DNA of 64,000 nucleotides from contig JBEPVF010000001.1 in assembly GCA_041691135.1 (NCBI GenBank), positions 96,001 to 160,000 of the forward strand, in the 5' to 3' direction. This document shows positions 2,260-60,807 of the stretch, in pieces; position 1 is the first letter of the stretch, and the number at the start of each line of letters is the position of its first letter. Under the pieces are notes generated by a model that worked only from the letters and a program-made list of their open reading frames with translations, did no database searches and was not told where the DNA came from. The DNA comes from Candidatus Peribacteria bacterium (GTDB taxonomy: Bacteria > Patescibacteriota > Gracilibacteria > Peribacterales > Peribacteraceae). Both the position numbers and the translations under genes were made by a program.

Positions 2260-4230
2260 ATGTTCCGATCGCTCTCGCTTATACGTGTCGCTGAGCTTAT
2301 TCTGCTCTGGTTTCTCGCCTTCGCTATTCTGTGGAAAGGCGGGAAAAGTCTGGAGACGACATGGCTGTTGCCATTGGTCAGTTGTTTGTGGGTATATGTT
2401 TCGTGGCGGACGTCGCCTCGTACGGGTGCGTCGGTCCGGCCGTTCCTGTGGAGTTCAGTGCTGTTGTTTCTGCTGTGGTCCGTTCTCAGTTACATCTTTT
2501 CGCTGACACAAAACTACGGACTGGATGAATTGCTGCGCGACATCTCCCTCTTTCTTCTGATGCTGTGCATCAGTCGCATCGAATGGCCGCGCTTTTCTGC
2601 CGAGCGAACGATGCGGTGGCTGGCATGGTGTGCCTTTGTTGCGGCACTTGCCGGATTCGTCGTCTACATTCTGCAACCCGTGAATCGCTTTGTGGGTACA
2701 TTTTTTGATTTCCGTTTTCAAACCGATTACTGGCCCAATGCGTGGGCCGAGTTTGTCCTGCTCGCCTGGCCGAGCGTGTTGTGGCTTGCGGTGACGTCGT
2801 CATCCCAAACGCGCCTTATCCGGTTGGGTATGCTCGGGGTTGTTCTGAGCGGATTACTTCTCAGTTATTCACGCGGCGGAATGCTCGCCTTCGGCGGACA
2901 ACTCGCGCTGCTCTTGCTCTTGCTGGTCATCAGAGGCTGGCCGCTTCATAAGAATCTTGTTCGTGGGTTCAGTCGGTATCCGTGGAAAAAAATTGTTATC
3001 TCTGCCGGTGCGGTGGTGGGGATGGCAGTCGTTTTGTTCGTCATCACGAACCTCATTCGATCCAACTTCTACGAGGTGCAGGATATTGAATCCAAAGTGA
3101 CCTTCAACGCTGCCGAAGGTAACTCGTCCATCACCGAACGTTCGGCATTCTGGCAGCAAGCTGTATTGCTCACCCGCGAGCGGCCGTTGCTCGGTTGGGG
3201 GCCGGAGAGTTTTCGTTTTGTTCAGCCTTTGTTACAGCGAGGCATTCTGGCAACAGCGGATCATCCGCACAACGTGATACTGAAGCTGGCAATGGAACGC
3301 GGCGTGCCGGCGGCATTGCTGTACCTCTGTATTCTGCTCGCCATCTTGGGCGTGTCGCTGCGACGCGAGATTTTCTCAACGGATGAATCGGTGTTGACCG
3401 TTCGAGCAGTGCTTCTTGTTTCTGTCTGTGGTGTGCTGGCGCACAATATGATCGATTACAACCTGCAGTTCGTCGGTATCGTTCTTCCATTCACTCTGTT
3501 TCTGGGATTTCTGGCGCGCGATATACCGACGCATCCTCGCGAATCGATTCCACGCAGCTTTCAAAAAGCAGTCGAGGTCGTCATCGCTATCGTGCTCTTG
3601 ATTCTCACGGTGTGGGAAGGGAGGTATCTGGTTCTTTCGTCCTTTGGCCGGCATGCCGAAGCGGTGCACGACGATGCGGCGGCGTTGCAGTGGTTCGAGG
3701 CGTCCAAGGGCGAACTCTTTTCGCGGGATCTGTTTTTGAGTCACGCACAACTGCTGCTCGATCAAGGCAAGTCTCGGGATGCCGAAATGGTACTGGGACG
3801 ATACTTGGCGGTGAACGGCCAGGATTACCGGGTGTGGAAACTGCTCGGGACGGTGCTCGTTGCCCGCAACCGCCCGGATGACGCGCTGATTGCTTATGAA
3901 CACGCGTACGCGTACGGCTATCAGAATGATCTGAGTATCCTTCGTTCGTTGCTCGAATTGCTCGAAATGACGGGGAACCAGGATGCCCTGCGTGTCTGGA
4001 AGCCAAAGGCCGAGAAGCTCCTCGCGTCCTATGCGAATGCCATTGAACAGAATACGCACTATATTTCTCTGTCGACGAATGTAGAAGAATTCGAAAAAGT
4101 GACCACCTTCCTCTCGAGTCACTTTCCGGATGATAAGCATTCATACGACGTACTTCTGGAGATCGTTAAACAGCATGCAAAAGACGCCAGGAGCAAGATC
4201 AAGGCCCGCCCCCCAGGATTCCTGTGGTAA
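2260..4230 (+). CDS. O-antigen ligase/Wzy_C-family membrane protein with C-terminal TPR-like region
   Basis: Multiple TM helices; LSYSRGG, ER..FW, PLLGWGPESF, HPHN motifs. Start placed at ATG 2260 behind a CATACT -10 box. Confidence 0.8.
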   Translation: MFRSLSLIRVAELILLWFLAFAILWKGGKSLETTWLLPLVSCLWVYVSWRTSPRTGASVRPFLWSSVLLFLLWSVLSYIFSLTQNYGLDELLRDISLFLLMLCISRIEWPRFSAERTMRWLAWCAFVAALAGFVVYILQPVNRFVGTFFDFRFQTDYWPNAWAEFVLLAWPSVLWLAVTSSSQTRLIRLGMLGVVLSGLLLSYSRGGMLAFGGQLALLLLLLVIRGWPLHKNLVRGFSRYPWKKIVISAGAVVGMAVVLFVITNLIRSNFYEVQDIESKVTFNAAEGNSSITERSAFWQQAVLLTRERPLLGWGPESFRFVQPLLQRGILATADHPHNVILKLAMERGVPAALLYLCILLAILGVSLRREIFSTDESVLTVRAVLLVSVCGVLAHNMIDYNLQFVGIVLPFTLFLGFLARDIPTHPRESIPRSFQKAVEVVIAIVLLILTVWEGRYLVLSSFGRHAEAVHDDAAALQWFEASKGELFSRDLFLSHAQLLLDQGKSRDAEMVLGRYLAVNGQDYRVWKLLGTVLVARNRPDDALIAYEHAYAYGYQNDLSILRSLLELLEMTGNQDALRVWKPKAEKLLASYANAIEQNTHYISLSTNVEEFEKVTTFLSSHFPDDKHSYDVLLEIVKQHAKDARSKIKARPPGFLW

Positions 4231-4556
4231 GTGTCTAAACGAGGCAGAATTTCAGCAGTCGATTTTTTGTTTAACAGAAGCCATAAAATTGGCACTCTAG
4301 TGGGGTCTTTTTTGGAAGTACTGATCGGCCAGTACGCACTGCCATATTAGAGTAATAAATATTATTTTAGTCAAATATCCCTATGCCGAATGAATTACTC
4401 AGGCTAAGAGCGAACGGCAGGTCAGTATGTAAACAATACTTTCTTTTCCTACCGTCAAAAATTCCTCCCCCGCAGTACGGGAAGGTTACCGATTTATATA
4501 CCGCGTCCCACGTATCGTTCTTTTGGAGAGCGGTGTCCGTTGTTCACTCCCATCTC

Positions 4557-4670
4557 TCAGCGCATAGCCGGGAGGCTCACCACCTGTATCACGATGAAGG
4601 TGATGATCGCTGCATGCACAAGCACGAGCGGGAGTGAAGCGCGGGTTAGGGATTGCTTCACTGCTTTCAT
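4557..4670 (-). CDS. Small hydrophobic protein, 37 aa (not in ORF track)
   Basis: MKAVKQSLTRASLPLVLVHAAIITFIVIQVVSLPAMR*; AAAGGGGG SD-like site; TAGACA-N16-TACAAT promoter at 4724-4697. Confidence 0.5.
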   Translation of the reverse strand: MKAVKQSLTRASLPLVLVHAAIITFIVIQVVSLPAMR

Positions 4671-4810
4671 AGTACCCCCTTTGAGAGGGGACGGGCATTG
4701 TAAGGGTTTACTATTTGTTGTCTAGCATTAAGTAAGTAGATTCATTTATGCCTTAAAATTGATAATCTTTGGCCCTTTGGTAGATCGGTGTTCATTGCAG
4801 GAGTTCATTA

Positions 4811-5242
4811 CTATTGTATGCTGCTATGATCTAATGGTTTATTAGAGTTTTTTTCATTAATCTCGTCAATAGCTGCCTGTCCGGCTTCAATCCCAAAACG
4901 GACATAGCCCAAATGCAGATGCTCAAGGATCTCGGGAGCGTCCAGCGGTTGCCGCACGGCGGTTTTTGCCAGCAGTTGGCAAGTAAGAGTGTAATCGTGC
5001 CTGCCAGACTGCCAAAAAGCTTCAGATGGTGTGTCGACGGCAGATAACAGTTTATTGAAGGCTTCGGCGGTAAGGAACGACAGAAAACGTATTCTCTCGA
5101 ATGTTACAGCTTGATCGCTCTCCAGAAGCTCCTGCATTGTCCGTTTTCTTTCCTGGTAAATAGTCTCGAGTTCCTCAAGGGAACAATATTTGTCACGACT
5201 TGCCAGGAATGTGCCGCGCGATTCGGGGGAAGGACTAGACAT
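4811..5242 (-). CDS. Hypothetical protein, 143 aa
   Basis: ATG ORF immediately downstream of a terminator/leader; no family recognised. Confidence 0.55.
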   Translation of the reverse strand: MSSPSPESRGTFLASRDKYCSLEELETIYQERKRTMQELLESDQAVTFERIRFLSFLTAEAFNKLLSAVDTPSEAFWQSGRHDYTLTCQLLAKTAVRQPLDAPEILEHLHLGYVRFGIEAGQAAIDEINEKNSNKPLDHSSIQ

Positions 5243-5250
5243 AGGTGGAC

Positions 5251-5401
5251 AGAGAGAAAAATCCCGCCATGCGCGGGAAGAGGAAGGAAAGTTCGGATCA
5301 GCTTCACCCTCTCACGCGTAGCGCGAGATAATAATAGTGATGCTGATGGTCGACAACCGCGTCATCGCCGGTGAATCTAGTGTGCTCGGTGGAAAAGTCA
5401 A
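5251..5401 (-). promoter_or_regulatory. Promoter plus putative ribosome-dependent attenuator (Ile/Thr-rich leader peptide at 5365-5312)
   Basis: TTGACT-N16-TAGATT; peptide MTRLSTISITIIISRYA*; terminator TCCCGC-gcatg-GCGGGA-TTTTT overlapped by a possible antiterminator. Confidence 0.6.
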
Positions 5402-5468
5402 CAATGTGGATGGTGACCGCTCGATTATCTCTTACGACAGGGGAATACTCACACGATGACGGCAGCCA

Positions 5469-6554
5469 TCAGTACTTCTTGCGCGTCAAAAAAGGTTTCT
5501 CGATGCAGAAATAGGTCGCAGCTGAAAGGCCTAACGTCAATGTGAGTGCGATCAAAAATTTAGAGGACACACCAAATGATAATCGTGTCACTTGTTGGAT
5601 GATGATGAAATGCCAGATGTAGAAGCTGTAACTTATCGTCCCTACTCCCAACAGAACGCGATTGCTGACTGCCGTCTTCACCCAGGAAAAAGTATGAGCG
5701 AGTGAGAAGAGAAACGAAGCGGTGGATAGGCCGACAAGCGAGTGAAGGAACACTTGTGAATAATAATGATCCCTGAATGTCTGTTGCAGTGTTGCGAACA
5801 GATGGATGCTGATGCCGAGCCCGCCCAAACTGATCAATAGCAGAAGCAATGCCGCTAACTTGGCAGTGGCTGACTGCATTGATTGCTTATGCGCGATAAA
5901 AATCGTCGCCCACGATGCCAATATGCCAAAAGCAAAATGATCCAATAGCCCGATAAAATTCTCGGTGTAGATGATCCGTTGTTCCTGATTCCACGCGGGA
6001 TAGAAGTCGGCAATGTACACGCGGAACCAGTAGGTGATGCTGACCATCAGCAGGCATCCCAGAAGAATCAACAGAGTGTTTCTCCTGGTAAAGAGGAAGA
6101 AGATCGGCAGGAAAGCATAGAAGATCATCTCGACTGATAAGCTCCACAGCACCGGATTGATGCCGTAATACGTGCTGGCACTCATACTCTGCAAAAAAAG
6201 CAAATGACTGGCGATGTTCATCAAGCCGGATCGTGTGAGCATCATCTGAGGCACGACGAAAATAAGAAATATGAAAAGAGAGAAATAATAAATAGGTGCG
6301 ATGCGCAAAAACCGCCGCTGCAGGTACTTCATGTTCGCGCCGTGAAAATAGATGGAACGGTAAATGAGGAAGCCGCTGAGCACGAAGAACATATCCAGTC
6401 CGATGTGACCGGCTTGAAACACGGGTGCAAGATTCATTCCCAAGAAATGGACATGCGATAGTTGATTAATGCCGTAGAAATGAAAGATGAACACCAGAAG
6501 AGCGGCCACGCCCCTGATGGAATCGAACCCAATCAATTTTTGTTGCTGTAGCAT
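5469..6554 (-). CDS. Acyltransferase family 3 (OafA/YrhL-like surface polysaccharide O-acyltransferase)
   Basis: DSIRGVAA..V..FH, FFVLSGFLI, RRFLRIAP, WSLSVE..FY, ISYSFYIWH, IEKP motifs. Confidence 0.9.
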   Translation of the reverse strand: MLQQQKLIGFDSIRGVAALLVFIFHFYGINQLSHVHFLGMNLAPVFQAGHIGLDMFFVLSGFLIYRSIYFHGANMKYLQRRFLRIAPIYYFSLFIFLIFVVPQMMLTRSGLMNIASHLLFLQSMSASTYYGINPVLWSLSVEMIFYAFLPIFFLFTRRNTLLILLGCLLMVSITYWFRVYIADFYPAWNQEQRIIYTENFIGLLDHFAFGILASWATIFIAHKQSMQSATAKLAALLLLLISLGGLGISIHLFATLQQTFRDHYYSQVFLHSLVGLSTASFLFSLAHTFSWVKTAVSNRVLLGVGTISYSFYIWHFIIIQQVTRLSFGVSSKFLIALTLTLGLSAATYFCIEKPFLTRKKY

Positions 6555-6650
6555 GATGTACCAGAGATGTAATAAATGTAGCTCTGCTCCTGTTCACTTT
6601 TTACATCTGCTTACGTTGTATTTACATCACATAATCCTCAGAGCGAAGGT

Positions 6651-6727
6651 TGGTCGGGACGACAGGACTTGAACCTGCGACCTCGTGCTCCCGAAGCACG
6701 CGCTCTAGCCAACTGAGCTACGTCCCG
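6651..6727 (-). tRNA. tRNA-Pro(CGG)
   Basis: Cloverleaf CGGGACG...anticodon arm CGTGC-TTCGGGA-GCACG...GTTCAAGTCC...CCA. Confidence 0.95.
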
Positions 6728-9701: not shown

Positions 9702-10652
9702 ATGCGATACCCTCTTCTTCTTGTCGGCGCCTCCGTTCTGGTTCTTACGGCCTGCGTCTCGCATCAGGGTTTGCCGGCGGATCAGGTTCTAAAAAAAGCT
9801 GCCGGCGTGGGACAGAATCTTGAGTCAGCCGATTTTGATGGCGTCGTTGATTTTAACTGGAAACAAGGAGCGGCCTCGTACATGTTCCATCTTATTCTCA
9901 ATGGCACGCTCAATAATGCGGGACGTGATACGCAACTTGGCGTCGCGGCAACCGGCACCATTCGCGATGCAACGCAGTCGTACGACATAGATGCGAACGT
10001 ACAAACCATTTCGCTCGACAACGGAGAAAACGTCTACCTTAAGCTCGACAAACTGGATACATCACCGGCGTATCCGCCCCTCAGTGGCAAGCAACTGCTT
10101 TCGTTTATGAACCGCTGGTGGAAACTGCCATCGGATAAAAAACCGGCCGACGCGCAGGCCATCACCCCCGATCCGCGCTTGCTCCGTGCTCAAACCGAAA
10201 TAGTATCGGTGACTAGCGATCATGGGATCCGTTCGGTCGACGGCCACAACGTGTACATGTATGACGTGACAATCGATCATGCGAAGCTGGCGGCTTTCCT
10301 GCGCACGTTGGCCACGCAGAATGCACAGGCTTTCGACGAGAGCCAAACCGAAGCTTTCTGGCAAATGTTCGACGCCAAGGGTTCACTCGAAATCAATGCC
10401 GACACGTTTGCCATCGAGCAATTGACATGGAAGCTCGAACCAACCAAGGGCTCCGAAGTACCGGCCATTACCTTCACCATTCATTTCTCCAATCAGAATC
10501 ATGCGGCCAACATCGCAGCGCCGCCTGATTACACGGTCTATACCAGTACGTTGCTTCCTCAAACCGAGGCTTCTCAATCGGAAGCATCCGCATCGTCGTC
10601 AATCTCCTCAGGAGCATCTTCACGTGTAACAAGTTCGTTTTCTTCCCGTTGA
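9702..10652 (+). CDS. Putative lipoprotein, possibly LolA/LppX-like fold
   Basis: Lipobox LTAC after a hydrophobic stretch; beta-rich body; I.AP motif near the end; Ser-rich tail. Confidence 0.6.
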   Translation: MRYPLLLVGASVLVLTACVSHQGLPADQVLKKAAGVGQNLESADFDGVVDFNWKQGAASYMFHLILNGTLNNAGRDTQLGVAATGTIRDATQSYDIDANVQTISLDNGENVYLKLDKLDTSPAYPPLSGKQLLSFMNRWWKLPSDKKPADAQAITPDPRLLRAQTEIVSVTSDHGIRSVDGHNVYMYDVTIDHAKLAAFLRTLATQNAQAFDESQTEAFWQMFDAKGSLEINADTFAIEQLTWKLEPTKGSEVPAITFTIHFSNQNHAANIAAPPDYTVYTSTLLPQTEASQSEASASSSISSGASSRVTSSFSSR

Positions 10653-10654
10653 CC

Positions 10655-12742
10655 ATGGCTGACGAAAAACTTGTGCCGGCTGCAGATGCCAATCCTTCTC
10701 AGGGCGGCCCGGTGCTCGACGGACTGACGGCCGAAAAGAAAGTATCTACCGCGCCATCGTTGCCATCGTCTGATGTTTCCGGAAAAGAGGTATCGCGCGC
10801 CAAGCATTTTTTACTGATGGTCGGCGGCGGTATCTACACGCTGTACGTACTGTGGTGCATGTTCCTTTTGTCGGTGTTGCCGACGAGCGGCCCGTTGCGA
10901 TCACTCGTGGGAGCAGGCCTCTTGTCAGCCATTGTGGCGGCAGCCGTGTTGCTCGGTGTCGGGTTCGTTGCCATGCAACGCATTGCGAAGTCCGATGTGT
11001 CGAATGCGACCCGCACGCGCAGCCTCATCAAAACGGTAGCGGTGGTGGCCCCGGGTTTATTGCTCAGTGCAGCTGTTCCACTGCTCATCTCTCGCGCACC
11101 GCCGCTGTGGATCGATATCGTGGATCCTGCCAATGCCCAGGACTTTGTGGCGCCGTTGGCCGTGACATTCTCGGCCGAAAGTGCGGTGAAGGAGTTGCAG
11201 CAGGAAGGACTGAAGCCGATCCATTTTGCGTGGGATTTTGACGCAGATGGAAAACCGAATGACGATACGGTCGTTCCGACATCGACAGGAATTTTCAATA
11301 AACAGGGAATATACGTCGTATCGGTACATATTGATTTGGCTGGCGGCAGCAGCCGAACGATCAGCACTCGTTTCACTATTCCCAGTGCGGTCTTTTCGGT
11401 ATCGCCCATCAAACCTATTGTGGAGCGGCCGGTAAAATTCAGCGTCAGTGATCTACTGTCCGCTCCGGAGTCACTCAAACAGATTCAGTGGGATTTTGAC
11501 GGCGATGGAACAGTGGACGAAACATCGACGAAACCCGAGACGGTCCATACCTATTACGCCGTGGGTCAGTACGCCGTGACGGCCACCTTGCAATTGGCGA
11601 ATCAGAGTCAGACGACATTCAAGCGACAAATTGATGTCGAAGTTGCTCCGCCGTTGCCCTTTCCTATAACGTTGACCAGTGACCCGGCAACGCTCGTCGG
11701 TCCGGCACCGTTCGGTGCCAGCTTCCGCATCACAACGGATGAACCGCTGCGCGAGATCGAATGGTCGTATGGCGACAATAAAGATGAACGGGGTGCCAAT
11801 CTTAAACGTGTGCTCCACTCGTGGGGAGTGACGGGCATTTATCCGGTGACGGTGAAGGCACGATCGGCCAGCGGATCGCTTGCCGAACTGTCGACGCTTG
11901 TGCGTGTCACCGACACATTGCAATTGTCGGACTTGAATTTTGAGGGAACGCCGGCGATGGATAACAGCGATACGATTCAGGGCGAAGCCCCGCTCACACT
12001 GCAACTGACACCGTCGACGAATACGCCACTCGTCCAATTTTCGTGGGAAGCGCCGGATGCCAGTGTGTTCAGTGCGACGGGCGCGGCATTGCACGCGATC
12101 TATCGCAAAGAGGGAAATTACAAACTCACGCTGGTGGCGCAGGATCCCGAAGGCAGCGCTATGCGAAAGGTCATCACCGTCAAAGTCCTACCGCCGGCTG
12201 CGCTGCCGGTTATCGATATCCGGCCGGAGTCCGGTGAAGCGCCACTCAAGATCACCTTCGACGGTTCGAATTCGTTCGTCCCTCAAGGAGAGAAGATCGC
12301 CGGTTTCGAATGGACGTTTGGTGACGAGGATCAGGGGACGAAGCCGGAACTTGGCGTGGCACGTACCGAACACCTCTACGTGAAGCCCGGTGAGTATCAG
12401 GTGCAATTGCGCATTGTGATGGCTTCGGGAGCTGATGCAAAGGCCACTCGCACGATCGTCATTCGTCGACCGGCGCTTACCGCCTGTATTACGGCCAGTC
12501 GCTTACAATTGCAGGTAGGCCAGGGCGTGGAGTTCAATTCCTCATGTTCCACCGGTATTCCCACCAGTTACCTGTGGGATGTACGATCCGACACGCAACC
12601 CGATGTCGTGTTGGCGCAAAGTCCTTCCGCCAAATATGTCTACGCCTTCGATAGTCCCGGTTCGTACAAGGTTAACCTCACCATCAAGGATGACTGGGGC
12701 AACCAGGATACGAAATCTCTTTCCATTACCGTCACACCATGA
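10655..12742 (+). CDS. Membrane-anchored multi-PKD-domain surface protein
   Basis: Three N-terminal TM helices; repeated WDFDGDG/WSYGD/WTFGD and Y..PG.Y.V.L PKD motifs. Confidence 0.88.
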   Translation: MADEKLVPAADANPSQGGPVLDGLTAEKKVSTAPSLPSSDVSGKEVSRAKHFLLMVGGGIYTLYVLWCMFLLSVLPTSGPLRSLVGAGLLSAIVAAAVLLGVGFVAMQRIAKSDVSNATRTRSLIKTVAVVAPGLLLSAAVPLLISRAPPLWIDIVDPANAQDFVAPLAVTFSAESAVKELQQEGLKPIHFAWDFDADGKPNDDTVVPTSTGIFNKQGIYVVSVHIDLAGGSSRTISTRFTIPSAVFSVSPIKPIVERPVKFSVSDLLSAPESLKQIQWDFDGDGTVDETSTKPETVHTYYAVGQYAVTATLQLANQSQTTFKRQIDVEVAPPLPFPITLTSDPATLVGPAPFGASFRITTDEPLREIEWSYGDNKDERGANLKRVLHSWGVTGIYPVTVKARSASGSLAELSTLVRVTDTLQLSDLNFEGTPAMDNSDTIQGEAPLTLQLTPSTNTPLVQFSWEAPDASVFSATGAALHAIYRKEGNYKLTLVAQDPEGSAMRKVITVKVLPPAALPVIDIRPESGEAPLKITFDGSNSFVPQGEKIAGFEWTFGDEDQGTKPELGVARTEHLYVKPGEYQVQLRIVMASGADAKATRTIVIRRPALTACITASRLQLQVGQGVEFNSSCSTGIPTSYLWDVRSDTQPDVVLAQSPSAKYVYAFDSPGSYKVNLTIKDDWGNQDTKSLSITVTP

Positions 12743-34702: not shown

Positions 34703-34819
34703 AGCGGAAGAGTAGCGAGAGCGGCCCAAAAGGCCAATAGAGTCGACAGAATGCGAGTGTGTGTGATGATGCGAACGTTCTAAAGACAAGCGATCACATC
34801 TGTGGTATTATATCATGAA

Positions 34820-36151
34820 ATGACACCCAAAGACAGATCACTCCTGACGGCTGCGTTGGTTCTTACCTTGGCGGTCATCGTAGCCGCACAAAGCCTCATC
34901 TGGCCGCATTTTGCTGCATCGGCTCAATCGGAAATATCCTCTTCGAGCAGCCTCATTGTCAAAAGCCGTGGGACATCGTACAAACCGCAGTACACGCCGG
35001 ATCCCAATCAGGTGAGCACGACGGCGAAACAAATATGTGGCGATCGGATGATTGAAACCGGTGAAGAATGCGACGACGGCTCCATGAACGGGTTCGGACG
35101 CTGTTCAAAAAATTGCCAGTTGCAATACTGCGGCGATGGAACGCTGACGCCCGCCGTCGGCGAAGAGTGCGAGGCGACACCGATGATGTTTCTCGATCCG
35201 GCCACCAACCAACCGTACGAAGAACTTGGTTTCGAAACACGCACGTGCGGCGATCCGATTTGTACGCCGCCGGATCCGACCAAAGGCATCGCCGGCTGTC
35301 TGCAAAAATTTCTTCCTTCCTGTGCTTCAAAAACAACTGCCGCACAAACCGCAATCAGTTCGTCGTCTTCCCCTTTCGCCGAACCCGTCAGTGTATCCGC
35401 AACCTCCTCGTTTTCGGAGCAAACGATTGGTAGTACCCTTTGCGGTAATAGTGTCAAAGATCCTGGCGAACAATGCGATACAGGCAGCAAAAATTCAGAT
35501 ATCTTGCCTAATAGTTGCCGGTCAAATTGCACCATTCCACATTGCGGAGATGGCGTAATCGATACCAATTTGCAGGAACAATGTGACAGCGGAGCTGACA
35601 ATGCTGATGCACCGGATGCATGTCGAATATCCTGTGAGTTACCTCGCTGTGGCGACTCTATTGTCGATAGCGGTGAACAATGCGACGGTGGTGATGCGTG
35701 CTCACCACAATGTACGTTTATTGATGCAGCTTCGTCTTTGTCCGCATTCACCGATTCGTCAGTGCTGGTAGAGAGCAGTCTCTCCACTTCTGTCTTTTCT
35801 CTTTGCGGGGATGGGATTCTTGATCCATTAGAGCAATGTGACGGAGGCCCGCAATGCTCCTCCAATTGTACGCTGCTGGCGGTCGAGTCATTGTCGTCAT
35901 CTTCATCAGTGTCTTCATTTGCGGGGATATTCTGTGGTGACGGAATCGTACAGGGATCTGAACAGTGTGATGACGGCAATCGTATTACGGGTGATGGTTG
36001 CAGCGCTCTGTGCCTCACCGAATCTACCGCCTCCCTTGCCATTTCGACGCCCGAATCGGCAACTGACACTAATTTGCTTATTGTTTTTAGCGTTACGAGC
36101 CTTTTGGGATTTATTTCCGGAGCGGCGGCGGGGGTATTGGTCAGGCGCTGA
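34820..36151 (+). CDS. Myxococcus-type cysteine-rich repeat (DUF4215) surface protein with C-terminal TM anchor
   Basis: Repeated CG(D/N)G....EQCD.G...C...C units; N-terminal signal/TM and C-terminal TM. Confidence 0.88.
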   Translation: MTPKDRSLLTAALVLTLAVIVAAQSLIWPHFAASAQSEISSSSSLIVKSRGTSYKPQYTPDPNQVSTTAKQICGDRMIETGEECDDGSMNGFGRCSKNCQLQYCGDGTLTPAVGEECEATPMMFLDPATNQPYEELGFETRTCGDPICTPPDPTKGIAGCLQKFLPSCASKTTAAQTAISSSSSPFAEPVSVSATSSFSEQTIGSTLCGNSVKDPGEQCDTGSKNSDILPNSCRSNCTIPHCGDGVIDTNLQEQCDSGADNADAPDACRISCELPRCGDSIVDSGEQCDGGDACSPQCTFIDAASSLSAFTDSSVLVESSLSTSVFSLCGDGILDPLEQCDGGPQCSSNCTLLAVESLSSSSSVSSFAGIFCGDGIVQGSEQCDDGNRITGDGCSALCLTESTASLAISTPESATDTNLLIVFSVTSLLGFISGAAAGVLVRR

Positions 36152-49281: not shown

Positions 49282-51648
49282 TTATTGACTGGATTGCTCT
49301 AGAGCTGTCGCATGGCTCAATCCGCTCGAATTGATATGAATAACAGGCGATGAGTAGAAAAGATGGCTGATGCCAGAGACTTTCGCTTGGACGTCCTGCG
49401 TGGCTGTGACTTGCGCACGGCTAATACCCGATAATTCCACGTCCGCACTGGTCGTCGTGAATGCACGTGCATCGGTGTTCGATATTCCGCTTCCGTGTAA
49501 CGTGAGCATCTGTCCGGATCCGGACAGTATTATTCGCGACACGCCTGCGTTGTTGATCGTCAGCGCAGTGACGCTCGTCGATGCATCGACACGCATGGCA
49601 CCGTTGATATCCAGACTGGTAAGGGTCGGCAGTGTGACGATGTATTCAACCGGATCCCAACGGCAGAACGGACAGCGGAACACACGTGGCTTATCGTGAT
49701 GTAAATGAAGAATGCCATCGCCATCCACGGAGCTGAGAACTTGTGGAAGACTGGTCGATGTTCCCCGAGCTAGTACGGAATAGCCCGATCCCTGACGCAC
49801 GGTCAGAATGTCATTTCCATTGGCGGCGATTCCCACAAAATTCTGCGCGTCGATACTTTTTTCTTCCGAGTAGACAGGTGTGTTGGTGGGGAAGAGCGGA
49901 ACGATCGGTGCGAAGAGCGAGAAGGCGAATCCGAACACGATCGGCCACATCACCAGCGCAGCCAGAATACGAAACACCGGATACGGACGACCGATGGTCG
50001 CAAGCGACTTGCCGGCGAAAATGAGGAACGCACAGGCGAGGAATGCCGCGGCAAACAGAATCGCTTCGAAGAGGATGGCGTACTGAGGCGTGGCAAATTG
50101 CGGCGAGAGGAACGGGATGCTTAGAAACATATTTGTTTTGTAGAGCATCAGTGCCGCATAGACGATCGCGGCGATTCCGATCCAAGCGGCAATGACAACC
50201 AATCTGCCAATCAAGCGCAGCAAACCGAAAACCAGTCCCTTCACACCGCGCTCCACTTTTTTACCAAATGAATGCTTGGCGTACGTTATGGTTGGATCAT
50301 ACGCATATGCAGCGACGTAGTGTCTATCGGCATCTAGGTCAGGTTCACTGTCGGAAGCATCGGCATCCGCTTTCTTTTCGGATTTGGATGCATGCTGCTC
50401 GCGCGCGCCGCGTTGGTGTGTGTTGCTCGCACCACTCACGGTCACTTTCATTTCCGGCGAACCGTAATACAGCAGGTTACTTGCTCCAGTGACGAAACCC
50501 TCAATTTTTTGCGATATCGACACTTCTGCCCGGCATGCGCCGTTCACTTCCACGTAGCCGGTCTTCACATGATAATTCGATGCGCTGGCCTTCGAGGCAC
50601 CGGATATGTGCAGATCGATTGTTTCGCCGGTGCCCGTCAGATTGAGCATTGATGCGCCTTCGATTTCCGACTTCAGGTGCTTACTGTTTGTGCGACAGCG
50701 GATGGTGGATGCGCCGGTCGCACGCAGTGTGAGTTCGTGGCTCTTGAATCCTTCGATTTCGGCACGGCTGGCGCCCGAAATGATGACGCTTGTCAGCTCC
50801 GGCATCACAATATCGATCGACAACTGATGGAAACCGTGGAACATCGACCGCAACCAGTTCACATGCGATCGCTCGACGTGCAGTTCGCCATTGTCGACAT
50901 AAATACGGAGAGCGCTCAGCTGCCGATTCGGCGCGCGGGCCGTTACTTTCGTAGACTTGCCTTCGCGGATGCGCAGTTGTACGGCGCTGCCGCCGTATAC
51001 CGATGTAAACCCGTGCACGTCAAAATTTTTCGTCGCTTGTTCCAAGTTCTCTTGAATCGCCGAGAGCGTCACTGCCTCACCTTGCATTTCCATCCGCTGC
51101 GTTGGCGTTTTAGCTTCGGGCATGGCAATCCACAAAATGATGTACAGAAGGATGCCGAATCCATGCGTCACAATCGTAAAGACAAAGAAGATGATGCGAA
51201 CGATGACCGGATCGATTTCGAAGTACGCGGCGATTCCCGCGCATACACCGGCCAGTACGCGATTCTGGGTGTCGCGAAAGAATCGCTTGGGGCCGCGCTG
51301 CTGCGAAGAAGATGAACGATAATGCTCTGGTTCTTCATTTTTACTTTCCGACTGCTCCGATCTCGTCGCATGATCAACACTTTCGAACTCGGCAAAATCT
51401 TCAACCGTTCCCATCGACTCGGTCAGCTTCTTTAAATCTTTCAAAGTTATTACTTGCTTGCTCCGTGTCAGTGTTTCGGAAAACTGTTCTGCGATCCGAC
51501 TCTCGATGTCGCTCACGATTTCATCGCGGTCGGGAAACGTCGCAAAGTGATCATGGATGGATCGCAGGTACTCATCTAATACGGCATACGCGTCATCGTC
51601 GACGTGGAACAGGATGCCGCTGATCTGGATACTGATGGTCTTTTTCAT
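49282..51648 (-). CDS. PspC-domain membrane protein with two DUF2807 (GIN-like) regions
   Basis: MKKTISI..F.VDDDAY..L..YL..DIESRIAE; RD..NRVLAGVCAGIAAYF (PspC); repeated SGAS/SGIS strands. Confidence 0.85.
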   Translation of the reverse strand: MKKTISIQISGILFHVDDDAYAVLDEYLRSIHDHFATFPDRDEIVSDIESRIAEQFSETLTRSKQVITLKDLKKLTESMGTVEDFAEFESVDHATRSEQSESKNEEPEHYRSSSSQQRGPKRFFRDTQNRVLAGVCAGIAAYFEIDPVIVRIIFFVFTIVTHGFGILLYIILWIAMPEAKTPTQRMEMQGEAVTLSAIQENLEQATKNFDVHGFTSVYGGSAVQLRIREGKSTKVTARAPNRQLSALRIYVDNGELHVERSHVNWLRSMFHGFHQLSIDIVMPELTSVIISGASRAEIEGFKSHELTLRATGASTIRCRTNSKHLKSEIEGASMLNLTGTGETIDLHISGASKASASNYHVKTGYVEVNGACRAEVSISQKIEGFVTGASNLLYYGSPEMKVTVSGASNTHQRGAREQHASKSEKKADADASDSEPDLDADRHYVAAYAYDPTITYAKHSFGKKVERGVKGLVFGLLRLIGRLVVIAAWIGIAAIVYAALMLYKTNMFLSIPFLSPQFATPQYAILFEAILFAAAFLACAFLIFAGKSLATIGRPYPVFRILAALVMWPIVFGFAFSLFAPIVPLFPTNTPVYSEEKSIDAQNFVGIAANGNDILTVRQGSGYSVLARGTSTSLPQVLSSVDGDGILHLHHDKPRVFRCPFCRWDPVEYIVTLPTLTSLDINGAMRVDASTSVTALTINNAGVSRIILSGSGQMLTLHGSGISNTDARAFTTTSADVELSGISRAQVTATQDVQAKVSGISHLFYSSPVIHINSSGLSHATALEQSSQ

Positions 51649-51992
51649 GACCGCAAGAGGGAAGTGATGGAAGAGGAGAGGGATTTCCAACTGGCAATGA
51701 GTTTCTTGAGTGAATCCCGACCGTCGCCGGTGAGGCTGTACAGCTTGCGTGGCGGGCCGCTCTTCGATTCCTCCCATTCGTATTCAAGCATTTCTTCTCG
51801 TTTAAGACGGCTGAGCAGGGGATAAATGGTGCCTTCGACGACGACCATATCGATAGAGGCTAATTTCTTCAGAATGTCCGGCGCATAGATGCGAGGGGAC
51901 CGGTCGATAATCAGCAAGATGCAGAATTCCAGAATGCCTTTGCGCATCTGTGACTGGTTTTTCTCGAAGTTTTGCTGCAAATCTGATGTCAT
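51645..51992 (-). CDS. PadR family transcriptional regulator
   Basis: QMRKGILEFCIL, EGTIYPLLSRL, W.ES.SGPPRK.Y.LT..G; ATGA overlap with the PspC gene. Confidence 0.93.
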   Translation of the reverse strand: MTSDLQQNFEKNQSQMRKGILEFCILLIIDRSPRIYAPDILKKLASIDMVVVEGTIYPLLSRLKREEMLEYEWEESKSGPPRKLYSLTGDGRDSLKKLIASWKSLSSSITSLLRS

Positions 51993-52012
51993 GTGAGGAG
52001 AGTGTAGTACAC

Positions 52013-52035
52013 AGTACTTGGTATTGCAAGGTACT
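52013..52035. promoter_or_regulatory. Putative PadR operator
   Basis: Palindrome AGTAC-ttggtattgcaag-GTACT over the padR promoter. Confidence 0.55.
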
Positions 52036-52120
52036 TTATAAGAAAGCACGAATACCGAAATTCGAAAAATGTAGGTTTTTCGAATTTCGGATTTTTCTCG
52101 ACTGGGGTTACAGTTTCCTT

Positions 52121-52864
52121 ATGGCAAATTACTCACTTATCACTGGCGCTACCAGTGGCATCGGTCTCGCCACAGCAAATGCACTGGCCGCTCAGAAAAG
52201 AAATCTGATTCTGATTGCGAGGCGAGAAGAGCGACTAAGCGAAATTAAGAGAACACTAACAGAAGAGCATGGCATTGACGTGAAAATCTTTGCCCTCGAT
52301 CTACGTGACACGGAAGCAGTGACGAAGGTGTTTGATGCGCTCGGTAGCCTGTCGATCGATGTGGCGGTGAACAATGCCGGACTCGCACGCGGGCGCGAAC
52401 CGCTTGAGACGTATGATTGGAATGATATCAGCGAGATGTTTGAGACGAATATCCGCGCATTCACGCTTGTTGCAAAGCTCGCCATTCCATTCCTCAAAAA
52501 GACGGAGGGCCATTTAGTGAACATCAGTTCCATTTCCGCGACCGAAGCGTATGCAAACGGCGCTGTCTATTGCGGTACGAAGGCATACGTAAAAATGGTC
52601 AGCCATGCCCTGCGCATGGAATTGCTCGGAACCAATGTACGTGTCACCGATATCGCACCGGGAATGGTCGATACTGAATTTTCATTGGTTCGTTACCACG
52701 GCGACGACAGCAAGGCGAAACATGTATACGAAGGCTTTGTGCCGTTGCATGCCGAAGACATTGCGGACTGCATTGTGTTTGCATTAAACCGTCCTAAGCA
52801 TGTGAATATTGATACGCTATTGGTGATGCCGACAGCGCAAGCTGGAACGATAGTTCATAAGTAA
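52121..52864 (+). CDS. SDR oxidoreductase (YdfG-like)
   Basis: TGATSGIG, NNAGLA.G, YCGTK, PGMVDTEFS. Confidence 0.92.
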   Translation: MANYSLITGATSGIGLATANALAAQKRNLILIARREERLSEIKRTLTEEHGIDVKIFALDLRDTEAVTKVFDALGSLSIDVAVNNAGLARGREPLETYDWNDISEMFETNIRAFTLVAKLAIPFLKKTEGHLVNISSISATEAYANGAVYCGTKAYVKMVSHALRMELLGTNVRVTDIAPGMVDTEFSLVRYHGDDSKAKHVYEGFVPLHAEDIADCIVFALNRPKHVNIDTLLVMPTAQAGTIVHK

Positions 52865-59800: not shown

Positions 59801-60807
59801 ACAAATTCATTCAGGAATCAGAACCATGGCTGCTTGCATACATGGGAACCGGTGCGACTGTCGGATCAGATGAATACGATCTGCTTCGCAAGGGAACATT
59901 TGAGAATGAACAGCCACTCGAAGTTCGTAAGCGGTCACTTTTTGCGCTATTCATGCAACGTGTATCTAACAAAGAATTGAATCAGGAATTAACCCAGAAT
60001 AATCTTTCGCCCGAAACATTGAACCAATTTTACGAAGAAGATTTTCAGAAAATGGTTCTGCCGTTCTTCTCCGCCGCCCTCTTTGCAAACTTACAACAAT
60101 ATACAAGCGAACCGACTCTGATGAATGTGACTTGGCAGCAAGTTCGTGATTTGAATATTCAAAACAATTGGCTACAAGTGCCCGATGCAATGCCACACGA
60201 AGTCGAAACTGCCCTCGATCAATCTGCAGTGTTTTACGTACAACATTTGCGCGAGCAGCGTTATCTTCAGGGGCGTGAACTTATGGCTCAGGCTGTGCAT
60301 GATGGCGACCGAGAACTAGCAAAAGACCTGGACAAAGCAATGCAAGAGGCCGGTAGTAAACGTGTATTTGGCACAACACTCTATTCGGTCGACAGTGAAT
60401 TGCAGGAAAATCAGAGACTCATGAAAGAGCAGGGTCGTATGCGGCAAGGCGAGCCATCCCAAACACGCGCGCAAATTATTCTGCAGAAGCTATTGAGTCA
60501 ATTTGATGCGCCCGTAGATCGTTCTGGTAATAAGCGAACTTCTCATTCCTTGAGTTCCATGCTTCACGAACCTGATGCATTCGCTGTTCGTTTGGAAGCG
60601 GACAGTAAGTGGTGGGCAGGGGATCACTTTGTACCATCTGCCGGCTTTGACTTAAAAAACCTGTCTACGACGCTTGAGAAGCAGGAAAATGTTGATTTAT
60701 TTGGTGAGAGCGTCATTAAAGAGGATACGCGTACAAAAGAGCGCCGGAAGGAAACAGGGAAAAGTGGGTCAATTCTGGAACTGATTGAGGGCAGAAAAGC
60801 CGCTTAG
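56893..60807 (+). CDS. Large helical hypothetical protein (1304 aa) with hydrophobic segments
   Basis: Long ORF, more AT-rich than neighbours; no family recognised. Confidence 0.8.
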   Translation: MVEQIENRRPQAEEIPEYLEQTNAEELRKALDVKDSAMGWNTILQEVNRRSDVAEASPLKNRLTVLGLQKKRSDVEQKRQDVSFALLATLKLVKAGMPVMLHRELVFRSLARYLDEKQTYEKIWKGEVPGEINLPEYLTPYIRSKESGHMLIRATEIILPTQYDVQEKAKLNSTPRQLSSLSNVLLLGAVNRRVSLRYVLACVPNGTLSNDIEPYRAFLAVSGFQTNEGQDISPQELEATKFAVAYIAKYLDAVQTTAKLKGTKVEDMTVTDAIEASLSAHPLAEMTKEIMSHVSEISLWSVPDLREAAKKALENKNLYPDQLVQAALAPLGNLPEAANPTDRAEFEANASAVGKFFMGFDAERFAVKHVEEQIKPYNEKQKAMIRSLCEQVKSEKVTNQILRSLFVPEQEKDRKQLDKDATAQLQALIQNGELTLKETFQLYYLSNSKSGAGLPLAYSAIQILDKHGQSTLSFDLQARSLRSLAGLTLTGVSNLPKKLESFGFDESQAVEFRNGILALKESGFEHGANALLKLWSLLKNHWDILAAAGIIPAGISAWQLKVFIDGKRFRKFAFGGTEQVRQEFKLQGVTDDQIRILQKEMQEILAERDLLWKFNFPERFGLTGQAHTTLKAASQDVEGMAKMLHKRYGTAFDVAQKMREANITDDEIRHSLKGLGYDELKADEAIERIGKNTRAELAGLRSNIENLNVKRFEDMADQLNKRLDAIEAPDGPKGPKLAEARAKIVEDVRVFQRELNDLSRVQGNEEVRKAVIRRLFPDITEANMKTILRAHTTDGLQFKLDLLKRHLSPQRARRLIRLGIAGETPSAEVVKQASRGLRWGHITNGGFAVLDAVFVSDDLYKYGEEIDNDQRIRESLHRTLTEHGFTFDAKKDAFVKGPIVLQVEKDVLNKLSAKKDIAAGRVAIDVAAGAGSLSLLLVESGVAAPLGALLAAGVLTVHVYLDKKERAVAYKFIQESEPWLLAYMGTGATVGSDEYDLLRKGTFENEQPLEVRKRSLFALFMQRVSNKELNQELTQNNLSPETLNQFYEEDFQKMVLPFFSAALFANLQQYTSEPTLMNVTWQQVRDLNIQNNWLQVPDAMPHEVETALDQSAVFYVQHLREQRYLQGRELMAQAVHDGDRELAKDLDKAMQEAGSKRVFGTTLYSVDSELQENQRLMKEQGRMRQGEPSQTRAQIILQKLLSQFDAPVDRSGNKRTSHSLSSMLHEPDAFAVRLEADSKWWAGDHFVPSAGFDLKNLSTTLEKQENVDLFGESVIKEDTRTKERRKETGKSGSILELIEGRKAA

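What the first reader, a model, noticed from the sequence alone, without database searches (positions are those of the whole stretch)
5242..5401. Ile/Thr leader-peptide attenuator controlling an unknown gene
Seen on the - strand: promoter TTGACT-N16-TAGATT, then an almost leaderless 17-codon ORF, MTRLSTISITIIISRYA* (5365-5312), with 5 Ile in 7 codons and 3 Thr. Three mutually exclusive helices follow. 1:2 is TCTCGCGC-tac-GCGTGAGA over the stop. 2:3 is CGCGTGAGAGG with CCTCTTCCCGCG. 3:4 is the terminator TCCCGC-gcatg-GCGGGA-TTTTTCTCTCT, ending ~9 nt before the ATG of a 143-aa hypothetical. Known: this is the thrL/ilv-type attenuation architecture (E. coli ThrL begins [15 protein letters not shown]). 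Inference: a probable amino-acid auxotroph senses Ile-tRNA charging to induce a non-biosynthetic protein, which would be a starvation or host-status response.
Basis: partly seen in the sequence, partly recalled or inferred. Interest (0 to 1): 0.78.

Follow-up and report, generated by a model that had tools for sequence, protein, structure and literature searches.

The report
Candidate isoleucine-sensing leader before orphan gene
A short isoleucine-rich reading frame with switchable RNA hairpins sits in front of a gene with no known relatives in a tiny symbiont-type bacterium; it looks like a classic amino-acid-sensing switch, but no related genome was available to confirm it.

Summary
On the minus strand lie a promoter-like TTGACT-16-TAGATT, an ATG 8 nt later, the 17-codon ORF MTRLSTISITIIISRYA, three mutually exclusive helices, and a GC hairpin with a U-tract that ends 8 nt before a 143-codon ORF.

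Folds with a masked ribosome footprint give attenuator logic. The terminator forms in free RNA and with the ribosome at the stop codon. It is replaced by the antiterminator when the A-site sits on Ile codons 11-12. Helix energies are ordered -22.8, -16.1 and -11.8 kcal/mol.

The -10-to-ATG spacing matches 16 of 30 ATG-start ORFs here, so this genome (Peribacteria-like, no Shine-Dalgarno enrichment) appears largely leaderless.

Each feature alone is weak. About 0.5 such Ile clusters are expected per window, and 116 of 1000 shuffles give the same switch logic. The downstream gene is an orphan (only self hits). There is no Rfam leader match, and no homologous locus could be found, so conservation is untested.

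Verdict: a plausible (about 0.45) leaderless leader-peptide attenuator that works like thr/ilv leaders but controls a non-biosynthetic orphan gene. The starvation-response reading is inference.

The parts
5396..5401 (-). -35-like hexamer TTGACT (5 of 6 to TTGACA)
   Evidence: Read. Reported by the consensus scan (9 of 12 matches with the -10, spacer 16).
5374..5379 (-). -10-like hexamer TAGATT, ending 8 nt before the leader ATG (leaderless geometry)
   Evidence: The same TANNNT-to-ATG spacing of 6-9 nt is seen at 16 of 30 ATG-start ORFs of the window.
5312..5365 (-). Leader ORF, 17 codons plus TGA: MTRLSTISITIIISRYA
   Evidence: TGA is a normal stop here: 15 of 39 long ORFs end in TGA.
5327..5347 (-). 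Regulatory codon cluster ISITIII (ATC AGC ATC ACT ATT ATT ATC)
   Evidence: It is the only cluster with at least 5 Ile in 7 codons in six frames of the window. Stalls with the A-site on codons 11-12 (5335-5330) switch the fold to the antiterminator.
5297..5347 (-). Helix 1:2 (anti-antiterminator and possible pause hairpin), 19 bp. The inner core, 5328-5310, spans the stop codon.
   Evidence: -22.8 kcal/mol for the extended hairpin and -11.5 for the inner core. It contains two G.U pairs, which would be mismatches on the plus-strand RNA.
5271..5317 (-). Helix 2:3 (antiterminator), a 20-bp interrupted helix that pairs 5 of the 6 bases of the terminator's 5' arm
   Evidence: -16.1 kcal/mol. It is the minimum-energy fold when bases up to 12-16 nt past Ile codon 11 or 12 are masked.
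5262..5278 (-). Helix 3:4, terminator-like stem-loop TCCCGC-gcatg-GCGGGA
   Evidence: -11.8 kcal/mol. It has the same build as the core of the gene-end terminator at 38203-38176.
5251..5261 (-). U-tract / pyrimidine tract TTTTTCTCTCT. It may double as the pyrimidine-rich upstream context typical of leadered genes here.
   Evidence: Pyrimidine runs of at least 8 nt occur upstream of 11 of 51 ORF starts, against 6.3% of random 30-mers.
4811..5242 (-). Downstream ORF, 143 aa, an orphan with a predicted helical bundle. It has no promoter-like site of its own between the hairpin and its ATG.
   Evidence: There is no promoter-like hit between 5261 and 5137 on the minus strand.
5328..5356 (-). Second promoter-like site, TTGTCG-17-TATTAT, inside the leader ORF (basis of a rival explanation)
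   Evidence: 9 of 12 matches. Its -10 box is made of the ACT ATT ATT codons.
5469..6554 (-). Upstream neighbour on the same strand: Acyl_transf_3 family O-acyltransferase. Its stop codon lies 191 nt before the hairpin.

Best explanation
This is a ribosome-mediated (leader-peptide) transcription attenuator on a leaderless transcript, sitting in front of an orphan gene.

Proposed mechanism:
1. Transcription starts at or 1-2 nt before the AUG at 5365. A 70S ribosome loads on the 5' AUG and translates MTRLSTISITIIISRYA.
2. When Ile-tRNA is well charged, the ribosome runs to the UGA, which lies inside region 2, and covers region 2. The terminator 3:4 (5278-5262 plus the U-tract) forms, and transcription ends about 10-20 nt before the 143-codon ORF.
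3. When there is no translation, the 19-bp hairpin 1:2 holds region 2, and 3:4 again forms.
4. When Ile-tRNA is scarce, the ribosome stalls with its A-site on ATT ATT (codons 11-12). It covers region 1 but leaves region 2 free. The more stable helix 2:3 then sequesters the terminator's 5' arm, and RNA polymerase reads into ORF143.

Shown here: the sequence elements, their geometry, the thermodynamic switch, and the fit to the genome's start-site style.
Inferred: that the promoter fires, that the ORF is translated, that the hairpin terminates, and that Ile charging is the signal.
The function of ORF143 is unknown. My guess, inference only, is a strain-specific cytoplasmic helical protein made when the Ile supply drops.
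For: - All elements are present and in the right order.
- Energy order is 1:2 at -22.8, 2:3 at -16.1 and 3:4 at -11.8 kcal/mol.
- Masked-footprint folds give terminator ON for free RNA, ON with the ribosome at the stop, and OFF in 7 of 15 Ile-stall states, namely codons 11-12 and codon 9 with longer footprints.
- The leader transcript folds better than shuffles on the minus strand (z -2.9; 2 of 300 shuffles as good) than on the plus strand (z -1.7; 14 of 300).
- The Ile cluster is unique in six frames of 64 kb.
- The -10-to-ATG spacing of 8 nt matches 16 of 30 ATG-start ORFs, and Shine-Dalgarno motifs are not enriched (GGAGG in 1 of 51 upstream regions against 0.7 expected).
- The hairpin is 1 of only 4 intergenic terminator-like sites among 25 found. 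It lies 191 nt after the upstream stop, whereas the two clear gene-end terminators lie 17-20 nt after their stops. It lies 20 nt before ORF143, which has no promoter-like site of its own.
- ORF143 looks coding: best of six frames, log-likelihood 0.068 per codon, an 11-nt pyrimidine tract upstream like other leadered genes, and single-sequence AlphaFold pLDDT of 80-91 over residues 21-100.
- The two other 'run plus terminator' loci in the window fail the promoter and fold tests.
- A leaderless Ile/Val/Leu leader with three hairpins is experimentally established in Corynebacterium glutamicum ilvBNC (PMC11857589, passages read).
Against: - There is no comparative evidence at all. ORF143 hits only itself in two protein searches.
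- The six Peregrinibacteria-type loci that carry the neighbouring acyltransferase (38-53% identity) have different downstream DNA and no Ile-run short ORF.
- Relatives with LepA at 88-94% identity exist, yet no ORF143 homologue was found in any collection searched. The unit is therefore strain-specific at best.
- Each feature is individually cheap: 0.5 Ile clusters expected per window; switch logic in 116 of 1000 shuffles; promoter plus ATG 9 observed against 5.1 expected.
- The terminator stem is only 6 bp, and its T-tract could simply be the pyrimidine-rich upstream context common in this genome.
- ORF143 has a lower coding score and lower GC3 than typical genes (0.068 against a mean of 0.148; 0.469 against 0.578). 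A database gene call starts it at M36.
- There is no Rfam leader match.
- The regulated gene has no connection to Ile metabolism, unlike nearly all known leader-peptide attenuators (recalled knowledge).
- A weak 5' hairpin can sequester the AUG.
Confidence: 0.45

Rival explanations
1. Chance short ORF. The hairpin plus T-tract is simply the terminator or insulator at the end of the acyltransferase transcript, or just the pyrimidine-rich upstream context of ORF143. The promoter-like site, the Ile run and the alternative helices are coincidences in an AT-richer intergenic spacer.
For: - The acyltransferase (stop at 5469) has no other terminator-like site downstream.
- Each feature is common in controls: 0.5 Ile clusters per simulated window; 16 of 40 simulated windows contain a run-ORF with a terminator-like site; 116 of 1000 shuffles give the switch logic; promoter plus ATG sites are near the chance rate.
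- There is no conservation and no Rfam hit.
Against: - The joint occurrence in one intergenic spot is rare (my product of the measured rates is 10^-3 to 10^-2 per window).
- The clear gene-end terminators here sit 17-20 nt after stops, not 191 nt.
- A terminator placed 20 nt before an ORF that lacks its own promoter-like site leaves that ORF unexpressed unless read-through is regulated.
- The fold is better on the minus strand than on the plus strand.
Confidence: 0.25
2. The three helices are real, but the input is not Ile charging. The small ORF may be translated, while stalling or termination is governed by something else: a nascent-peptide or drug-dependent stall as in erm/cat-type leaders, a protein or small RNA binding the 19-bp hairpin, or general coupling of translation and transcription.
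For: - The structures and energy order are as.
- The peptide's I/S/T-rich composition resembles drug-sensing leader peptides (recalled, not tested).
- The downstream gene is unrelated to Ile metabolism.
Against: - ORF143 matches no resistance, defence or phage family.
- The productive stall positions in the folds coincide exactly with the ATT ATT pair. The Ile model predicts this; the other models do not.
Confidence: 0.12
3. Start-site-dependent terminator bypass. The real promoter of ORF143 is the internal TTGTCG-17-TATTAT site (5356-5328). Transcripts from it start near 5321, lack region 1, fold into 2:3 and read through. Transcripts arriving from the acyltransferase contain region 1, fold into 1:2 plus 3:4, and stop. 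No leader translation is needed.
For: - The internal promoter-like site scores the same 9 of 12 as the upstream one.
- The model uses all three helices.
- It gives ORF143 a leadered mRNA with the pyrimidine tract seen at other genes.
Against: - It leaves the in-frame ATG, the three further Ile codons outside the TATTAT box, the placement of the stop codon in region 2, and the upstream leaderless-type promoter as coincidences.
- A TATTAT box is an almost automatic by-product of ACT ATT ATT, and a 4-of-6 -35 hexamer at the right spacing is cheap (inference).
Confidence: 0.1
4. A type I toxin-antitoxin-like module. The 17-aa Ile-rich peptide would be a small membrane-active product, controlled by an antisense RNA from the plus-strand promoter-like site at 5303-5332.
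For: An antisense promoter-like TTCACC-18-GATAAT with an ATG 7 nt later overlaps the leader. The peptide is Ile-rich.
Against: - Seventeen residues, with S, T and R interspersed, are too short and too polar for a membrane helix (read from the sequence).
- The antisense -10 box is just the reverse complement of the ATT ATC codons.
- There is no PADLOC or Pfam hit.
Confidence: 0.03

Closest known systems
E. coli thr operon leader (thrL, Rfam RF00506 Thr_leader)
   Same: - A short leader ORF rich in Thr and Ile codons (ThrL is [21 protein letters not shown]).
[quoted passage not shown]
   Different: - There is no sequence or structure homology: no hit at E <= 10, against 122 bits for the control.
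- Here the run is Ile-dominated.
- The leader is leaderless rather than started by a Shine-Dalgarno site.
- The downstream gene is an orphan, not thrABC.
Corynebacterium glutamicum ilvBNC attenuator (IlvL, MTIIRLVVVTARRLP)
   Same: - The transcription start is only one nucleotide from the leader start codon, so it is leaderless.
- A 15-aa leader with Ile/Val/Leu codons.
- Three hairpins (anti-antiterminator, antiterminator, terminator), including a hairpin that can hinder leaderless initiation (PMC11857589, passages read).
- Here the leader is 17 aa, with the same three-hairpin layout and a small 5' hairpin over the AUG.
   Different: - The known system controls branched-chain amino-acid biosynthesis genes and is conserved among corynebacteria.
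- This one precedes a non-biosynthetic orphan in a lineage reported to lack most amino-acid biosynthesis (PMC4736985), and it has no known homologues.
Mycobacterial polycysteine leaderless short ORFs acting as Cys-responsive attenuators
   Same: Leaderless short ORFs with a run of one amino acid's codons act as the first cistron and tune downstream operon expression (bioRxiv 10.1101/834739; title and start of abstract seen only).
   Different: - A different amino acid (Cys).
- The downstream genes are related to that amino acid's metabolism, and the mechanism is reported for operonic expression in Actinobacteria.
- I did not read the details.
E. coli ilvGMEDA and ilvBN leaders (IlvL, IvbL)
   Same: Leader peptides with Ile/Val/Leu runs that sense charged branched-chain tRNAs by attenuation (recalled knowledge, not checked with a tool).
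   Different: - These are multivalent (several amino acids), Shine-Dalgarno-dependent, and sit upstream of biosynthetic operons.
- Here only Ile codons sit at the productive stall positions.

Membership tests
Leader-peptide (ribosome-mediated) transcription attenuators, thr/ilv class | Short leader ORF with clustered codons of the sensed amino acid | tested here: met
   There are 5 Ile in 7 codons (5347-5327). It is the only such cluster in six frames of the window, although about 0.5 per window is expected by chance.
Leader-peptide (ribosome-mediated) transcription attenuators, thr/ilv class | Intrinsic terminator between the leader ORF and the regulated gene | tested here: met
   A 6-bp stem with 5 GC pairs, a 5-nt loop and UUUUUCUCUCU, at -11.8 kcal/mol, lying 20 nt before the ORF143 ATG. 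This is met by motif only. Termination activity is not testable here.
Leader-peptide (ribosome-mediated) transcription attenuators, thr/ilv class | Mutually exclusive helices 1:2, 2:3 and 3:4, whose choice depends on ribosome position | tested here: met
   Energies are -22.8, -16.1 and -11.8 kcal/mol. The terminator forms in free RNA and at the stop, and is off in 7 of 15 Ile-stall states. Caveat: 116 of 1000 shuffles show the same logic.
Leader-peptide (ribosome-mediated) transcription attenuators, thr/ilv class | A credible translation start for the leader | tested here: met
   There is no Shine-Dalgarno site. However, the -10 box ends 8 nt before the ATG, as at 16 of 30 ATG-start ORFs of this window, and Shine-Dalgarno motifs are not enriched genome-wide. 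Translation itself is not testable here.
Leader-peptide (ribosome-mediated) transcription attenuators, thr/ilv class | The regulated genes serve synthesis, charging or uptake of the sensed amino acid | tested here: not met
   ORF143 has no Pfam, NCBIfam, PHROGs or PADLOC family, no homologue other than itself, and no PDB fold match at E <= 0.001.
Leader-peptide (ribosome-mediated) transcription attenuators, thr/ilv class | Regulatory codons and helices conserved (with covariation) in related genomes | tested here: inconclusive
   No homologous locus was found. The six relatives' acyltransferase loci have unrelated downstream DNA.
Leader-peptide (ribosome-mediated) transcription attenuators, thr/ilv class | Read-through rises when the cognate tRNA is uncharged | not testable with these tools
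   This needs reporter, Term-seq or in vitro transcription-translation experiments.
Rfam Thr_leader (RF00506) and other curated leader families, by homology | Covariance-model match | tested here: not met
   cmscan of 4700-5700 at E <= 10 returned 3 unrelated weak hits and no leader family. The gathering scan of the whole window found only 5 tRNAs. The positive control, E. coli thrL, scored 122 bits.
Actinobacterial leaderless leader-peptide attenuators (C. glutamicum IlvL type) | Transcription start at or within about 1 nt of the leader start codon | not testable with these tools
   This is predicted only from the -10 spacing of 8 nt. There are no transcript data.
Type I toxin small peptides with antisense RNA | A hydrophobic peptide long enough to span a membrane | tested here: not met
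   The peptide is 17 aa, with S, T and R interspersed in the Ile run. An antisense promoter-like site exists, but it is the reverse complement of the Ile codons.

The most novel reading that the evidence does not exclude
A member of the Candidate Phyla Radiation (class Peribacteria) that cannot make isoleucine uses a leaderless Ile-codon leader peptide as a direct gauge of the externally supplied amino acid. It couples that gauge, by transcription attenuation, to a strain-specific orphan protein.

If so, this would be the first ribosome-mediated attenuator described in this radiation. It would also be one of very few attached to a gene outside amino-acid metabolism, that is, a nutrient-status or host-status switch rather than a biosynthetic feedback loop.
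Probability: 0.4. Interest if true: 0.7.

Novelty: new variant of a known kind. Interest (0 to 1): 0.5.

Why it matters
Leader-peptide attenuation is a textbook feedback device for amino-acid biosynthetic operons. An example in an organism of a lineage that lacks those pathways, controlling a gene unrelated to them, would show the device reused as a sensor of external supply. It would also give a rare handle on gene regulation in uncultivated, reduced-genome CPR bacteria.

My three full-text searches found no paper combining transcription attenuation or leader peptides with this radiation.

The accompanying observation may be of broader use for gene calling in these lineages. In this genome Shine-Dalgarno motifs are not enriched upstream of ORF starts, about half of the ATG-start ORFs look leaderless, and others are preceded by pyrimidine tracts.

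Tried and rejected
- Rfam. The gathering scan of the window found only 5 tRNAs. Permissive scans of 4700-5700 and 4200-4830 gave only unrelated weak hits.
- Homology of ORF143. The word-indexed search found 1 protein among 28 candidates, which was itself as a 108-aa call. The exhaustive HMMER search of 1.84 billion representatives found the same single hit. Pfam, NCBIfam, PHROGs and PADLOC gave 0 families. The ESM Atlas gave no usable hit. Foldseek against the PDB gave 0 matches at E <= 0.001, and the top hits were generic helical bundles.
- Cluster look-up. It showed only an identical 143-aa copy on a 3325-nt contig, not a diverged relative.
- Comparative test through the neighbouring acyltransferase. 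I aligned 24 of the 717 hits: the query plus the 23 closest (A1). That alignment retrieved 19 loci. Six were from Peregrinibacteria/Peribacteria/Gracilibacteria-labelled MAGs at 38-53% identity. None showed the leader or ORF143 within 700 nt downstream, by eye.
- Systematic scan of those six loci. It found Leu, Ser and Phe run ORFs only. One Leu-run locus in L001 (10003-10110) has a terminator-like site and was not followed up.
- blastn of 4231-5468 against phage and plasmid collections found no match.
- Rejected: a reassigned-TGA code that would read through the leader stop. Of 39 long ORFs, 15 end in TGA.
- Rejected: the leader as a remnant of the acyltransferase C-terminus. That protein is full length against its relatives, with 97-100% query coverage.
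- Rejected: the 16-bp 'terminator-like' hairpin at 52055-52090 as a second attenuator. It is a perfect palindrome lying upstream of the -10 box of a leaderless SDR gene, next to a PadR-like ORF, so it is more likely an operator.
- Not done: complex prediction was not used, since no binding claim is made. The second structure job was also not used.
Full report
**What is there**

Read on the minus strand, the 226-nt spacer lies between an Acyl_transf_3 acyltransferase gene (5469-6554; Pfam E 1.6e-24) and a 143-codon ORF (4811-5242). It contains, in order:
- TTGACT (5401-5396), 16 nt, TAGATT (5379-5374).
- Eight nucleotides, then ATG (5365).
- The ORF MTRLSTISITIIISRYA, ending in TGA (5314-5312).
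- A GC-rich hairpin, TCCCGC-gcatg-GCGGGA (5278-5262).
- TTTTTCTCTCT (5261-5251).
- Eight nucleotides, then the ATG of the 143-codon ORF (5242).

The consensus scan independently lists both the promoter-like and the terminator-like site.

**Structures**

The free leader RNA (5367-5250) folds at -40.2 kcal/mol into a small 5' hairpin over the AUG, a 19-bp hairpin at 5347-5297, and the terminator hairpin.

Folded separately:

| Helix | Energy (kcal/mol) |
|---|---|
| Extended 1:2 | -22.8 |
| Inner 1:2 | -11.5 |
| 2:3 (5317-5271, 20 interrupted pairs, covers 5 of 6 bases of the terminator's 5' arm) | -16.1 |
| 3:4 | -11.8 |

This is the order an attenuator needs.

I then forced the bases under a ribosome to stay unpaired, taking footprints that reach 12, 14 or 16 nt past the first A-site base. 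The results were:
- The terminator forms when the ribosome is at the stop codon.
- It forms when the A-site is on Ile7, and in all but one setting on Ile13.
- It is replaced by 2:3 when the A-site is on Ile11 or Ile12, and on Ile9 with longer footprints.
- In total, 7 of 15 stall states switch the terminator off.

So the ATT ATT pair is the effective sensor. The scattered Thr codons are not.

The minus-strand RNA is more unusual than its complement: z -2.9 with 2 of 300 shuffles as stable, against z -1.7 with 14 of 300. The long hairpin has two G.U pairs that would be mismatches on the other strand.

**Controls for chance**
- The Ile cluster is the only one with at least 5 Ile in 7 codons in six frames of the window, but Markov simulations give 0.5 per window.
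- Short ATG ORFs with a 5-of-7 run of any residue and a terminator-like site within 120 nt occur at 3 loci here. Simulations average 0.525, and 16 of 40 contain at least one.
- The other two loci (2396 plus strand, 27187 minus strand) lie inside genes, have no promoter-like site, and their hairpins do not form in the free fold.
- Shuffling the stretch between the Ile run and the terminator gives the same switch logic in 116 of 1000 trials, and equally strongly in 49 of 1000.
- A promoter-like site followed by an ATG 6-9 nt later occurs 9 times, against 5.1 +/- 2.9 in simulations.

Each feature is therefore cheap on its own. Their coincidence at one intergenic spot I estimate at 10^-3 to 10^-2 per window. 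That is an inference that assumes independence.

**Genome context that changes the reading**

The window belongs to a Peribacteria/Peregrinibacteria-type CPR genome.
- LepA's best non-self relatives are 94, 89 and 88% identical. All 11 organism-bearing names among the best 120 are Peribacteria, Peribacteraceae or Peregrinibacteria.
- The acyltransferase's relatives point the same way.
- The gene content fits: pentose-phosphate and glycolytic enzymes, murE, priA, and no amino-acid biosynthesis genes in these 64 kb.
- The paper describing the class reports only a few amino-acid biosynthesis genes, with Ala, Ser and Gly possible (PMC4736985, passages read). That supports the auxotroph premise for the lineage, not for this genome directly.

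More important is how genes start here.
- Shine-Dalgarno motifs are not enriched upstream of ORF starts. GGAGG occurs in 1 of 51, against 0.7 expected.
- Sixteen of 30 ATG-start ORFs have a TANNNT box ending 6-9 nt before the ATG. These include tsaD and rnhB, which have the same 8-nt spacing as the leader.
- Another class of ORFs is preceded by pyrimidine runs: 11 of 51 have a run of at least 8 nt, against 6.3% of random 30-mers.

The leader ORF thus has the genome's leaderless start geometry. ORF143's M1 start has the genome's pyrimidine-tract context (an 11-nt run), while the alternative M36 start has neither (a 3-nt run).

**The downstream gene**

ORF143 is an orphan.
- It finds only itself in both protein searches and matches no family in four libraries.
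- It has no PDB fold match at E <= 0.001 and no Atlas lead.

It is probably real.
- It is the best of six frames, at 0.068 log-likelihood per codon. That is below the gene mean of 0.148 +/- 0.045 but above the lowest gene at 0.010.
- A single-sequence AlphaFold model gives five helices (four of at least 20 residues), with pLDDT of 80-91 over residues 21-100, including a helix that spans M36.
- An independent assembly carries the identical 143-aa call.

No promoter-like site lies between the hairpin and either candidate start. Its transcription must therefore pass the hairpin.

Of 25 terminator-like sites in the window, only 4 are intergenic. The two clear gene-end terminators sit 17-20 nt after stop codons. 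This one sits 191 nt after the acyltransferase stop and 20 nt before ORF143.

**What could not be shown**

- The window's species was not among the genome representatives.
- The six related loci carry different DNA after the acyltransferase, and none has an Ile-run short ORF.

ORF143 has no homologue, although relatives with LepA at 88-94% identity exist. The unit is therefore at best strain-specific.

The element is not a homologue of curated leaders. It has no Rfam leader hit at E <= 10, while E. coli thrL scores 122 bits in the same tool.

**Mechanism and rivals**

I rate the Ile-sensing, leaderless leader-peptide attenuator at about 0.45.

- Main rival, 0.25: the short ORF is chance, and the hairpin is the acyltransferase's distal terminator or simply part of ORF143's upstream context.
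- Internal promoter, 0.10: a neat alternative uses the internal promoter-like site TTGTCG-17-TATTAT (5356-5328). Transcripts starting there would lack region 1 and bypass the terminator, while acyltransferase read-through would be stopped. I rate it low because it leaves the in-frame ATG, the three further Ile codons and the stop placement unexplained, whereas a TATTAT box is an almost automatic by-product of ACT ATT ATT.
- Non-Ile inputs (drug- or peptide-dependent stalling, or a factor binding the 19-bp hairpin): 0.12.
- A type I toxin-like reading: 0.03.

**Comparison with known systems**

It works like the thr and ilv leaders. It is closest to the Corynebacterium glutamicum ilvBNC attenuator, whose 15-aa leader MTIIRLVVVTARRLP starts one nucleotide from the transcription start and is followed by three competing hairpins (PMC11857589, passages read; see also PMC3890552, passages read). 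Leaderless polycysteine short ORFs acting as attenuators are reported in mycobacteria (bioRxiv 10.1101/834739; title and start of abstract seen only).

It differs in lineage (CPR), in having no detectable homologues, and above all in what it controls.

Three full-text searches found no paper that reports such attenuation in this radiation. These combined leader peptide, attenuation or transcription attenuation with Patescibacteria or Candidate Phyla Radiation. Two returned no paper. The third returned three papers; in the two I opened, the terms occurred only in a figure legend or in reference lists. Subscription-only papers are outside that library.

**Verdict**

The architecture reading is supported in silico. 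Family membership by homology is not met. The biological interpretation is unproven. If real, it is a new variant of a known kind.

Noticed in passing
whole window (upstream regions of 51-52 long ORFs): Shine-Dalgarno motifs are not enriched upstream of ORF starts in this window (GGAGG in 1 of 51 upstream regions against 0.7 expected). Sixteen of 30 ATG-start ORFs have a TANNNT box ending 6-9 nt before the ATG, which is leaderless geometry. Another 11 of 51 have a pyrimidine run of at least 8 nt (TTCCTCC-like) in the 30 nt before the start, against 6.3% of random 30-mers. The role of the pyrimidine tract is unexplained. No rRNA gene is in the window, so the anti-Shine-Dalgarno sequence could not be checked.
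   Followed up: partly
window 52055-52090, with 51645-52049 (-) and 52122 (+): A perfect 16-bp palindrome, CCGAAATTCGAAAAA-tgta-GGTTTTTCGAATTTCGG, lies between a PadR-like ORF on the minus strand and a short-chain dehydrogenase gene. The likely true start of that gene is the ATG at 52122, 6 nt after TACAGT. The palindrome looks like an operator rather than a terminator. The longest-ORF calls 51950-52864 and 49282-51777 probably over-extend.
   Followed up: partly
window 4464-4724 (-): This is the best promoter-like site of the region (TAGACA-16-TACAAT, 10 of 12). It is followed by a 37-aa hydrophobic ORF (ATG 4670; MKAVKQSLTRASLPLVLVHAAIITFIVIQVVSLPAMR), which is preceded by AAAGGGGG, and then by a terminator-like hairpin at 4485-4464. 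It could be a small membrane protein gene, or the end of the leader-ORF143 transcription unit. It has no Rfam match.
   Followed up: partly
window 4231-6727: The block holding the small ORFs, ORF143, the leader and the acyltransferase abuts tRNA-Pro(CGG) at 6651-6727. It has lower GC (0.472 for 4001-6000, against 0.51-0.55 in the flanks). It may be a strain-specific insertion next to the tRNA gene. No integrase or repeats were looked for.
   Followed up: no
window 5303-5459 (+): An antisense promoter-like site, TTCACC-18-GATAAT, has an ATG 7 nt later (5340) and opens a 39-codon ORF that overlaps the leader start. The -10 box is the reverse complement of the ATT ATC codons, so this is probably a by-product.
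   Followed up: partly
window 10649-12742, 34802-36151, 56893-60807: Several large proteins are probably extracellular: one with polycystin/PKD-like repeats, one with a cysteine-rich acidic repeat (TIGR02232), and a 1304-aa protein with no family. This fits the cysteine-rich surface proteins described for Peribacteria (PMC4736985, abstract).
   Followed up: no
window 16799 (+): This is the best leaderless-type signal in the window (TTTACA-17-TATAAT, 11 of 12, with an ATG 9 nt later). It opens a 77-codon ORF in what my long-ORF map treats as intergenic, so it may be an unannotated small gene.
   Followed up: no
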